Below, in pieces: positions 8,494-9,423 of a stretch of 13,485 nucleotides of DNA. The position numbers were made by a program, and so were the translations under genes. The stretch is from IMG/VR virus record IMGVR_UViG_3300017987_004412, positions 1-13,485 of that record, one strand, 5' to 3'. Each line of letters starts with the position of its first letter. Positions within the stretch are counted from its first letter, which is position 1. Origin of the DNA: a virus. Below the pieces are notes generated by a model. That model had not been told where the DNA came from, searched no databases, and worked only from the letters and a program-made list of their open reading frames with translations.

Positions 8494-9423
8494 ATGAGTA
8501 ACAAACTGAATTACATCATCAAGTGTTTGAACCGTCACATGTATGCCTTGCAGAAAGTCAGGATTGCGTGTGAGAATAGAGTTACTGCAAGTTTTGAAGA
8601 CGACAAAGATCGTGAAGCCTGGGTAATCAGAAAGAAAAGAAGCAAACGTCCGGATCCATCCAAGTTCGCTGTTGATGCCTTAGAGGATGGCTATTGGAGA
8701 ACCCTTGAAGAAGAGGCCGCAGTTGCGCGACAGATAAGGAAATTCCTCGTAGATCACCCTGCCTGGATTGCCTTCTTACAATACATAGGGGGGATATCCA
8801 CTCGGCTTGGGTCTTCTCTGATTACAGAGATCTATGATATCGGAAGGTTTCCTACGGTATCGTCGTTGTGGGCATATTTCGGGCTGACCAGCCAATATGT
8901 TGTTGCAAAGTGTAAGGGTGATCCATCCCATAAGTTGATAATGGCGTCAGACAAGAATGTCCTGTGTCCTGTCATGCTCGAACCTGACGGCCCAATCCCA
9001 CCAGGATCAAAACCACCCATATGTAATAGTCCCCTTGAAATTATTGAGCGGGTTTACGGTAAGGCTCCGAGACCCACAAAGGGGTACCACTATCTTTTCA
9101 ACACCAAAGCAAAAAAGCTTGCATTCAAAATAGCTGAGCAGATGGCTACCAAATGGAAGCAGGGGCCGATGACCTATCAAAATGTCTATCAGGAGGAGAT
9201 TAAAAGACAGACAGATCTTCATCCGGAGATCACAGTTCTTCATGCCAAGCGTCGAGCTATGAGGAAAATGACCAAAATCTTCCTCAGTAATCTCTGGGAG
9301 GAATGGAGAAAGGCTGAGGGCCTGCCGGTCAGAGAACCTTATGTTTTTGATAAGCTTGAAGGACATACACACTATATCAATCCCATGCGAACTGAACTTG
9401 CTGGGGTAAGAGAGAACCATTGA
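8494..9423 (+). CDS. protein with IS110-family-transposase C-terminal-like helix-hairpin-helix domain (Transposase_20-like), no DEDD catalytic domain evident
   Basis: Strong SD GAAGGAGG. Segment IGGISTRLGSSLITEIYDIGRFPTVSSLWAYFGLTSQ parallels the IS110/IS902 C-terminal motif (I.GIG...A..L.AEIGD..RF.s...L.aYaGL.P). The later GYHYLFNTKAKKLAFKIAEQMA resembles the (K)RGN..LR.ALY.AA tail. The N-terminal 100 aa shows no recognisable RuvC-like DEDD residues. Its stop lies 14 nt before the MVP-homolog start. Confidence 0.5.
   Translation: MSNKLNYIIKCLNRHMYALQKVRIACENRVTASFEDDKDREAWVIRKKRSKRPDPSKFAVDALEDGYWRTLEEEAAVARQIRKFLVDHPAWIAFLQYIGGISTRLGSSLITEIYDIGRFPTVSSLWAYFGLTSQYVVAKCKGDPSHKLIMASDKNVLCPVMLEPDGPIPPGSKPPICNSPLEIIERVYGKAPRPTKGYHYLFNTKAKKLAFKIAEQMATKWKQGPMTYQNVYQEEIKRQTDLHPEITVLHAKRRAMRKMTKIFLSNLWEEWRKAEGLPVREPYVFDKLEGHTHYINPMRTELAGVRENH

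What the first reader, a model, noticed from the sequence alone, without database searches (positions are those of the whole stretch)
8494..9423. IS110-C-terminal-like HhH protein without DEDD domain, translationally linked upstream of the MVP homolog
The 309-aa product has a good match to the IS110/IS902 transposase C-terminal motif (IGGISTRLGSSLITEIYDIGRFPTVSSLWAYFGLTSQ). Its N-terminus has no recognisable RuvC-like DEDD catalytic residues. Its stop is 14 nt from the MVP-homolog start. It may be a domesticated DNA/RNA-binding module, conceivably a cargo/nucleic-acid adaptor for the vault-like protein (eukaryotic vaults carry vault RNA). Alternatively it is a decayed IS remnant that brought the MVP gene in.
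Basis: partly seen in the sequence, partly recalled or inferred. Interest (0 to 1): 0.55.

Follow-up and report, generated by a model that had tools for sequence, protein, structure and literature searches.

The report
Phage TasA guide-RNA protein without array
The 309-aa gene is not a broken insertion sequence but a nuclease-less TIGR-Tas protein (TasA), a recently described kind of RNA-guided DNA-binding protein of phages; unusually, it sits between head genes and a vault-protein homologue and has no guide-RNA array within the 13.5 kb available.

Summary
The ORF (8494-9423, 309 aa), its helix-hairpin-helix motif, the lack of a DEDD domain and the 14-nt gap to the MVP homologue are all real. 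The protein is a member of the TIGR-Tas family. It scores 136.6 bits (cut-off 100) on NCBIfam NF052498, against 21.8 (cut-off 140) on the IS110 model and 18.9 (cut-off 21.3) on Pfam Transposase_20. Its AlphaFold model matches solved TasR and TasH structures best, and IS621 only after them. The N-terminus is an all-helical coiled coil with no nuclease domain, so it is a TasA. The two residues that cut pre-tigRNA in SpTasH (Y289, H296) align to Y283 and H291. The query keeps 44 of 49 conserved family positions. About 70 of 88 relatives' loci carry a 36-nt-period dual-repeat array (TG-CGAG-CCA edge repeat, 9-nt spacers) beside the gene. The window has none, and not a single CGAGCC. No relative has an MVP neighbour, and MVP homologues in 462-735 kb phages have no Tas neighbour. 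The vault-adaptor and IS-remnant ideas are therefore unsupported. It is most likely an RNA-guided DNA binder or repressor whose array lies outside the contig. This is a new member of a known kind, in an odd context.

The parts
8494..9423 (+). tasA-like gene: 309-aa nuclease-less TIGR-associated (Tas) Nop-domain protein
   Evidence: NCBIfam NF052498 TIGR_Tas_endo 136.6 bits (cut-off 100), E=1.1e-39, query 11-272 on profile 3-215/215. phmmer against PDB: 9mty TasR E=1.4e-16, TasH E=0.002. Foldseek top hits are TasR and TasH. phrog_4285 E=1.8e-32.
8500..8748 (+). N-terminal coiled-coil hairpin (residues 3-85), the predicted dimerisation domain. Its tip carries a basic insertion specific to this protein (about residues 34-60, RKKRSKRPDPSK).
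   Evidence: The AF2 model has helices 3-33, 37-48 and 62-85 and no strands. Relatives lack the tip insertion in alignment A1. The dimerisation role is inferred from TasR/Nop5 (PMC12045711).
8758..8886 (+). Helix-hairpin-helix segment (residues 89-131, first part of the Nop C-terminal domain).
   Evidence: Pfam PF02371 on residues 95-132, 18.9 bits. Invariant G100, D115, W126 and G130.
8893..9057 (+). Beta-rich Cys/His insertion (residues 134-188; C140, H146, C158, C177) at the position of the Tas 'wedge'. It is probably zinc-binding.
   Evidence: Strands at 134-140, 147-150 and 180-188 in the model. The four ligand residues are conserved in P0002-P0006 and absent from more distant relatives. 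Zinc binding and wedge identity are inferred.
9082..9315 (+). Helical core of the Nop C-terminal domain (residues 197-274), with invariant G197, K207, Y228, Y232, H250, R257, K261 and R272
   Evidence: Alignments A1 and of 161 representatives. Aligns to residues 216-320 of TasR 9mty.
9316..9393 (+). C-terminal loop (residues 275-300) carrying Y283 and H291, the counterparts of the SpTasH pre-tigRNA-processing residues Y289 and H296
   Evidence: phmmer alignment to TasH chain 21kl_A, with residue numbers from PMC13421893. H291 is 94% and Y283 86% conserved in 161 representatives.
8236..8274 (+). Terminator-like hairpin (8236-8265) overlapping a near-consensus sigma-70-like promoter (TTGACA-16-TATATT, 8247-8274). 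This is the possible start of the transcription unit.
   Evidence: Consensus scan, 11 of 12 promoter positions. Consensus match only; function not shown.
8264..8467 (+). Small zinc-ribbon ORF (CxCxxC...CxxC) directly upstream. The likely start is GTG 8318, preceded by GGGAG. The metagenome pipelines did not call it.
   Evidence: ORF list. Weak HypA/NrdR zinc-ribbon matches. No gene is called there in L005-L008. It occupies the place where relatives have their array.
9438..12107 (+). Downstream gene: 889-aa major-vault-protein homologue. It is a neighbour, not shown to be a functional partner.
   Evidence: Pfam MVP_shoulder 95.6 bits. 38-40% identical homologues in huge phages.
12118..12142 (+). 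Strong GC-rich hairpin after the MVP gene, the probable end of the transcription unit
   Evidence: RNA fold of 12108-12266: 11-bp stem, region z-score -3.88.

Best explanation
The gene encodes a TasA, the nuclease-less form of the TIGR-associated (Tas) Nop-domain proteins, carried by a large tailed phage. By homology it should dimerise through its N-terminal coiled coil. It should bind a roughly 36-nt tigRNA through box C (CCA) and box D (UG) contacts in its C-terminal domain. It should cut the precursor RNA with the Y283/H291 pair. It should then use the two 9-nt spacers to pair with both strands of an 18-bp DNA site. With no nuclease domain, the outcome is binding and bending of DNA. That would give transcriptional repression or blocking of a competitor or host locus, not cleavage. 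The gene appears to be co-transcribed with a small zinc-ribbon ORF and the MVP homologue. The guide array expected beside the gene is absent from this 13.5-kb contig, so the guides most likely lie elsewhere in the unsampled genome. Shown here: family membership, fold, absence of a nuclease domain, conservation of the processing residues, arrays beside most relatives, and no array in the window. Inferred: dimerisation, RNA binding, DNA targeting, repression, and the location of the guides.
For: The curated TIGR-Tas model is passed (136.6 against 100 bits) while the IS110 model fails (21.8 against 140). The best PDB sequence hit is TasR 9mty (E=1.4e-16) over two stretches covering the Nop domain, followed by TasH. 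The AF2 model (pLDDT 85.2, pTM 0.79) matches TasR (E=1e-9, TM 0.57-0.60) and six TasH entries ahead of IS621/ISCro4 (E about 1e-3). Residues 1-133 are all helical, and Pfam gives no RuvC/HNH hit. SpTasH catalytic residues Y289 and H296 align to Y283 and H291. The query keeps 44 of 49 conserved columns of 161 family representatives. The closest relatives (45-49% identity) have canonical dual-repeat arrays directly beside the gene: TGCGAGCCA alternating with TGAGAACCA and 9-nt spacers. About 70 of 88 relatives' loci have same-strand arrays of 36-nt period, mostly within 600 nt. So does cultured Microcystis phage Mvi-JY20. TasA proteins have been shown to act as RNA-guided repressors (bioRxiv 10.64898/2026.09.09.750476). 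The family is large: 1,813 representatives at 50% identity with E<=1e-3.
Against: No TIGR array of either architecture is present on either strand of the window. There are 0 matches to two consecutive CCA-N9-TG intervals with up to 1 mismatch. There are 0 matches to TGCGAGCCA with up to 1 mismatch and 0 CGAGCC hexamers. No chain of 4 or more intervals was found for any box pair. A TIGRFinder-like stem-loop scan gave 1 hit against 0.66 expected. In relatives the array is nearly always adjacent, so an array elsewhere would be atypical. No RNA, binding or repression data exist for this protein. The genome beyond the contig could not be recovered.
Confidence: 0.7

Rival explanations
1. It is a truly orphan TasA. 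The phage has no array of its own and the protein works on guide RNAs made by other elements, such as a co-infecting phage or a resident prophage. It would either hijack them or soak them up as an anti-TIGR decoy. Alternatively it has taken on an RNA-independent DNA-binding role.
For: No array lies within 8.5 kb upstream or 4 kb downstream, whereas about 70 of 88 relatives have one adjacent. The RNA-processing residues and conserved core are intact, so RNA handling is probably retained. Only about a third of the 20,096 known tas loci have a detected array. A few relatives with long flanks also lack one, for example L027 with 10 kb on each side.
Against: The contig is a small part of what is probably a large genome: it has a T4-like portal, and the MVP relatives are in 462-735 kb phages. 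Absence from the genome is therefore unproven. No decoy or trans-acting Tas has been described in the papers read.
Confidence: 0.2
2. One reading: the protein is an RNA/DNA adaptor that loads cargo into, or works physically with, the vault-like shell made by the adjacent MVP homologue.
For: The genes are 14 nt apart on the same strand. They are apparently bounded by a promoter-like site at 8247-8274 and a strong hairpin at 12118-12142. The arrangement is identical in contigs from at least five samples. Eukaryotic vaults are ribonucleoproteins (established knowledge).
Against: The pairing is not conserved in either direction. None of 88 Tas-relative loci has an MVP homologue. MVP homologues in LR756500 and LR756501 have no Tas neighbour and no shared synteny. 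The five contigs are essentially clonal, with 0-1 mismatch, so they count as one observation. The preprint on phage MVPs has no occurrence of 'transposase', 'neighbo' or 'adjacent' in a term search.
Confidence: 0.06
3. It is a decayed or truncated IS110-family insertion sequence, possibly the vehicle that brought the MVP gene in.
For: A weak Transposase_20 match. phrog_4285 and phrog_2199 are labelled 'transposase'.
Against: The IS110 model scores 21.8 against a cut-off of 140, and Transposase_20 is below its gathering score. The full-length match is to Tas. The conserved family positions are intact, which a remnant would not show. No flanking inverted or direct repeats were found and there are no Rfam hits. 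Composition is uniform with the neighbours. No Ser is conserved after the HhH in the family alignment, where IS110 recombinases are expected (from memory) to carry their catalytic Ser. The PHROG label predates the description of Tas.
Confidence: 0.02

Closest known systems
TasA of TIGR-Tas systems (e.g. Flavonifractor plautii FpTasA, Minisyncoccota MbTasA; Faure et al. 2025, PMC12045711; Xu et al. 2026 preprint)
   Same: A solo Nop domain with an N-terminal coiled coil and no nuclease. Phage-encoded. Passes the curated TIGR-Tas model. Its relatives use dual-repeat arrays with box D TG, box C CCA and 9-nt spacers.
   Different: No array within the 13.5-kb contig. A roughly 55-residue Cys/His beta insertion at the wedge position, shared only with its closest subclade. 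An extra basic insertion at the coiled-coil tip. It lies inside a head-gene region next to an MVP homologue.
TaTasR (PDB 9MTY), the RuvC-fused Tas endonuclease
   Same: Best sequence match (E=1.4e-16) and best structural match (TM 0.57-0.60) over the coiled coil and Nop C-terminal domain, including the GH..Y..P C-terminal loop.
   Different: TasR has an N-terminal RuvC nuclease of about 130 residues and cleaves DNA. The query has none.
SpTasH of Salicola phage CGphi29 (PDB 9W03/9W04/21KL)
   Same: Shared Nop domain. The pre-tigRNA processing residues Y289/H296 align with Y283/H291, and R278/R286/K293 align with R272/R280/K287.
   Different: TasH has an N-terminal HNH nuclease. It is only distantly similar in sequence (E=0.002).
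Hypothetical protein XAI95461.1 of Microcystis phage Mvi-JY20 (PP438412.1)
   Same: The only match among 50,697 deposited phage records (E=2e-11 over residues 187-297). It is a 241-aa nuclease-less Tas followed by a TGCGAGCCA/CGAAACCCA array of about 9 units and a terminator.
   Different: It has the array directly downstream and no MVP homologue nearby. It is not annotated as Tas in the record.
IS110-family bridge-RNA recombinases (IS621, PDB 8WT6/8WT9)
   Same: The RNA-binding C-terminal domain has the same fold (Foldseek E about 1e-3), and the HhH segment gives the Transposase_20 signal.
   Different: IS110 proteins have an N-terminal DEDD RuvC-like domain, a catalytic Ser, a bridge RNA and element ends. 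None of these is present here.

Membership tests
TIGR-Tas (Tas proteins) | Sequence membership in the Tas Nop-domain family | tested here: met
   NF052498 scores 136.6 bits against a cut-off of 100, over the full profile. 9mty E=1.4e-16.
TIGR-Tas (Tas proteins) | Nop fold: coiled-coil dimerisation hairpin followed by a helical C-terminal domain | tested here: met
   AF2 model with pLDDT 85.2. The top 11 Foldseek PDB hits are all TasR or TasH chains. Dimerisation itself was not tested.
TIGR-Tas (TasA subtype) | No HNH or RuvC nuclease domain | tested here: met
   No such Pfam hit at E<=1. Residues 1-133 are all helical.
TIGR-Tas | A TIGR array (dual-repeat or stem-loop) beside the tas gene | tested here: not met
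   None in the window on either strand. One is present beside about 70 of 88 relatives. Only 13.5 kb of the genome is available.
TIGR-Tas (dual-repeat clade) | Tyr/His pair in the C-terminal loop that processes pre-tigRNA | tested here: met
   Y283 and H291 align to SpTasH Y289 and H296. They are 86% and 94% conserved. Activity was not tested.
TIGR-Tas | Binding of a tigRNA and RNA-guided DNA binding | not testable with these tools
   Needs RNA pull-down and EMSA.
IS110 family insertion sequence | N-terminal DEDD (RuvC-like) domain, PF01548 | tested here: not met
   No hit at E<=1. No beta-sheet in the N-terminal 133 residues.
IS110 family insertion sequence | Transposase_20 / IS110 model above curated cut-off | tested here: not met
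   PF02371 scores 18.9 against 21.3. NF033542 scores 21.8 against 140.
IS110 family insertion sequence | Element ends and an upstream bridge-RNA region | tested here: not met
   No flanking repeats. No Rfam match. The gene is packed in a co-directional phage operon, 26 nt after the preceding ORF.
Box C/D snoRNP Nop5/Nop56/58 | Nop domain (PF01798) with a fibrillarin-binding N-terminal domain | tested here: not met
   No PF01798 hit at E<=1. No Nop5 structure among Foldseek hits with E<=10.
Vault accessory or cargo-adaptor protein | Conserved co-occurrence with an MVP gene | tested here: not met
   0 of 88 Tas loci have an MVP homologue. The MVP homologues in two huge phages lack a Tas neighbour.

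The most novel reading that the evidence does not exclude
An intact, processing-competent TasA that has lost its own array and is co-transcribed with a phage major-vault-protein homologue. It might serve a new role. One possibility is delivering guide-RNA-like or other nucleic-acid cargo to a vault-like shell. Another is acting as a sponge for the tigRNAs of competing TIGR-carrying elements, which would be an anti-TIGR function.
Probability: 0.07. Interest if true: 0.8.

Novelty: new member of a known kind. Interest (0 to 1): 0.3.

Why it matters
The finding replaces a misleading 'IS110 transposase fragment' reading with the correct family. PHROG labels this family 'transposase', and the NCBIfam model name 'endonuclease' would also over-annotate a protein that has no nuclease domain. 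It adds a TasA subclade with a probable zinc-binding wedge insertion. It also documents a tas gene sitting without an array inside a head-gene region of what may be a very large phage. If the complete genome shows no array, this would be a clean natural case for asking what array-less Tas proteins do; they are about two thirds of known tas loci. As it stands, it is an ordinary new member of a family described in 2025.

Tried and rejected
1. Array searches in the window all came back negative. I used TRF and repeat finding, two-interval pattern searches, family edge- and loop-repeat searches, generic box-C/N8-12/box-D chain scans for any box pair, CGAGCC periodicity and a TIGRFinder-like stem-loop scan with shuffles.
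2. A 12-bp stem (12158-12169 with 12226-12237) encloses a 56-nt loop holding one perfect CCA-N9-TG. I considered it as a single stem-loop tigRNA. I rejected it because the second interval is imperfect, the stem is not adjacent to the boxes, and relaxed scans give fewer hits than shuffles (23 against 38).
3. I considered region 8258-8493 as a decayed array, because it contains TGAGAACCC. I rejected it because there is no 18- or 36-nt periodicity and it encodes a CxxC...CxxC zinc ribbon.
4. Rfam gave only a sub-threshold C/D-box sR30 match inside a coding region at 649-703 (18.2 against 38 bits). I treated it as chance.
5. Attempts to extend the phage genome failed. These were exact-protein look-ups, viral-contig scans with Tas, MVP and portal, and a genome-contig scan with MVP.
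6. A selection analysis across the six contigs was impossible because they are clonal.
7. A hidden HNH in the Cys/His insertion was rejected. There is no Pfam hit, and the model shows strands only in that segment, with no helix as a beta-beta-alpha metal finger would need.

Full report
**Observation.** The window is a one-strand phage gene block. Its genes, in order, are:
- a large terminase interrupted by an intein with an HNH endonuclease (1272-4697);
- a T4-type portal (4716-6569);
- an HU-like protein;
- a CHAP-domain protein (7048-7542);
- a 240-aa protein;
- a small zinc-ribbon ORF (8264-8467);
- the 309-aa target (8494-9423);
- an 889-aa protein with an MVP shoulder domain (9438-12107);
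- an ExoX-C-like protein;
- a DNA methyltransferase.

Pfam gives only a sub-threshold Transposase_20 match (18.9 bits, cut-off 21.3, residues 95-132) and no DEDD domain.

**Identity.** PHROGs matches the whole protein to phrog_4285, labelled 'transposase' (E=1.8e-32). A search of PDB sequences pointed elsewhere. The best hit is 9mty (E=1.4e-16), followed by TasH chains. Foldseek identifies 9mty as TIGR-TasR in complex with tigRNA and target DNA.

NCBIfam settles the question. The protein scores 136.6 bits on NF052498, 'TIGR-Tas system RNA-guided endonuclease' (cut-off 100, full profile). It scores only 21.8 bits on the IS110 model (cut-off 140).

An AlphaFold2 model built on 17 homologues (pLDDT 85.2, pTM 0.79) matches TasR best (E=1e-9, TM 0.57-0.60). 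TasH entries come next, and IS621/ISCro4 recombinases only after them (E about 1e-3).

Residues 1-133 are entirely helical. Helices 3-33, 37-48 and 62-85 form the coiled-coil hairpin, and there is no nuclease fold. The protein is therefore a TasA in the nomenclature of Faure et al. 2025. The family is large: 1,813 representatives at 50% identity reach E<=1e-3.

**Integrity.** SpTasH cuts its precursor guide RNA with Y289 and H296 (PMC13421893). In the phmmer alignment these fall on Y283 and H291 of the query. H291 is invariant and Y283 at least 90% conserved among 17 homologues. In 161 family representatives they are 94% and 86% conserved, and the query keeps the consensus residue at 44 of 49 conserved columns. 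This is not a decaying gene.

Two features are unusual. The first is a beta-rich Cys/His insertion (residues 134-188; C140, H146, C158, C177) at the wedge position, shared only with the closest subclade P0002-P0006. The second is a basic insertion at the coiled-coil tip.

**Relatives and their arrays.** The closest homologue on long contigs is P0003 (49% identity, in a phage with SU10-like portal and capsid genes). Directly upstream of its gene is a textbook dual-repeat TIGR array. TGAGAACCA and TGCGAGCCA alternate with 9-nt spacers at a period of 36. P0004 and P0002 have the same edge repeat beside the gene, and P0017 has about 30 units downstream.

I then fetched 80 further metagenome loci and scanned them together with the earlier ones. 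About 70 of 88 loci carry same-strand arrays of 36-nt period with a CGAGCC core, mostly within 600 nt of the gene, even though many contigs are short. The only hit among deposited phage genomes is Microcystis phage Mvi-JY20. It has an unannotated 241-aa Tas followed by about nine TGCGAGCCA/CGAAACCCA units and a terminator. The edge repeat (C-GA-G between the boxes) and the A-rich loop repeat fit the published tigRNA structure.

**The window has no array.** The searches found:
- no match to two consecutive CCA-N9-TG intervals, allowing one mismatch;
- no TGCGAGCCA with up to one mismatch;
- no CGAGCC hexamer on either strand;
- no chain of four or more intervals for any box pair;
- stem-loop candidates at or below the shuffle expectation.

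Rfam finds nothing meaningful. Where relatives have an upstream array, this phage has a small CxxC...CxxC ORF. The contig could not be extended. All six contigs are clonal (0-1 mismatch) and end within about 300 nt of each other.

Array-less tas loci are not rare. Only 6,685 arrays were detected at 20,096 loci, and one array-less branch sits in densely packed viral genomes.

**The MVP neighbour.** A promoter-like site (TTGACA-16-TATATT, 8247-8274) and a strong hairpin at 12118-12142 suggest one transcript covering the zinc-ribbon ORF, tasA and the MVP homologue. These are consensus matches only.

The pairing is not conserved. None of the 88 Tas loci contains a homologue of the MVP gene or of any other window gene, apart from a marginal methyltransferase match (E=0.001) in two loci. 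The MVP homologue's relatives (38-40% identity) lie in huge phages of 462 and 735 kb, without a Tas neighbour or shared synteny. Phage MVPs have already been reported (bioRxiv 10.1101/2023.11.10.566534). Guilt by association therefore gives no support to a vault-adaptor role.

**Mechanism.** The most likely reading is a TasA dimer that binds and matures 36-nt dual-spacer guides. It would bind 18-bp DNA sites without cutting them and so act as a repressor or blocker. This activity was shown experimentally for other TasA proteins. The guides are most probably encoded outside the 13.5 kb sampled.

Family, fold, lack of a nuclease domain, conserved processing residues and the missing local array are shown here. 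Dimerisation, RNA binding, targeting, the biological target and the location of the guides are inferred. The main rival is a truly orphan TasA working on foreign guides. The IS-remnant and ordinary-IS readings are rejected.

**Verdict.** The correct family is TIGR-Tas (TasA), already known since 2025. This is a new member in an unusual context, of modest interest.

Noticed in passing
window 9438-12107: The 889-aa MVP homologue (shoulder domain 95.6 bits) has 38-40% identical, near full-length homologues in uncultured huge phages LR756500 (462 kb) and LR756501/LR756503 (735 kb). The window may therefore come from a very large phage. No other window gene is shared with those loci.
   Followed up: partly
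window 1272-4697: The large terminase ORF (1141 aa) is interrupted by an intein splicing domain that contains an HNH endonuclease (Pfam Intein_splicing, HNH_3).
   Followed up: no
window 8264-8467 (likely start GTG 8318): A small zinc-ribbon ORF (CTCFRC...CPSC) lies directly upstream of tasA. The JGI and ENA pipelines did not call it. It occupies the position where relatives carry their TIGR array. None of the 88 Tas-relative loci has a homologue.
   Followed up: partly
window 12155-12239: A long-range stem of 12 bp with one G-U pair (12158-12169 with 12226-12237) encloses a 56-nt loop that has one perfect CCA-N9-TG interval. It lies in the 160-nt gap after the MVP gene (region fold z-score -3.88). 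It fails the stem-loop tigRNA rules, and its function is unknown.
   Followed up: partly
window 13455-13485 and beyond (L005-L008, L094, L095): Independent assemblies of this phage all stop inside the gene that starts at about 13220. For the four contigs (L005-L008) that I mapped, the ends fall at window-equivalent 13455-13790. This suggests a repeat or a hypervariable stretch there.
   Followed up: no
window 649-703: A sub-threshold Rfam match to the archaeal C/D-box sRNA sR30 (18.2 bits against a gathering score of 38) lies inside a coding region. It has GAUGA boxes but the terminal box D is CGGA. It is probably chance.
   Followed up: partly
L103 2120-3200 (Microcystis phage Mvi-JY20, PP438412.1 21367-22450): A cultured cyanophage carries an unannotated TasA (XAI95461.1, 'hypothetical protein'). 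It is followed by a TIGR array of about 9 units (TGCGAGCCA / CGAAACCCA, 9-nt spacers) and a terminator. The array partly overlaps a 46-aa CDS annotated on the opposite strand.
   Followed up: partly
L027 9812-10984: A 390-aa Tas relative with its own CxxC-containing insertion has 10 kb of flank on each side, no CGAGCC-type array and a 775-nt gene-free gap downstream. This is another array-less or divergent-array case.
   Followed up: partly
L012 11086-11775 and 12090-12434: Minus-strand ORFs called by the pipeline lie on top of a TIGR array of about 30 units (GAGCGAGCCA/GAGAAATCCA). They are probably spurious gene calls.
   Followed up: no
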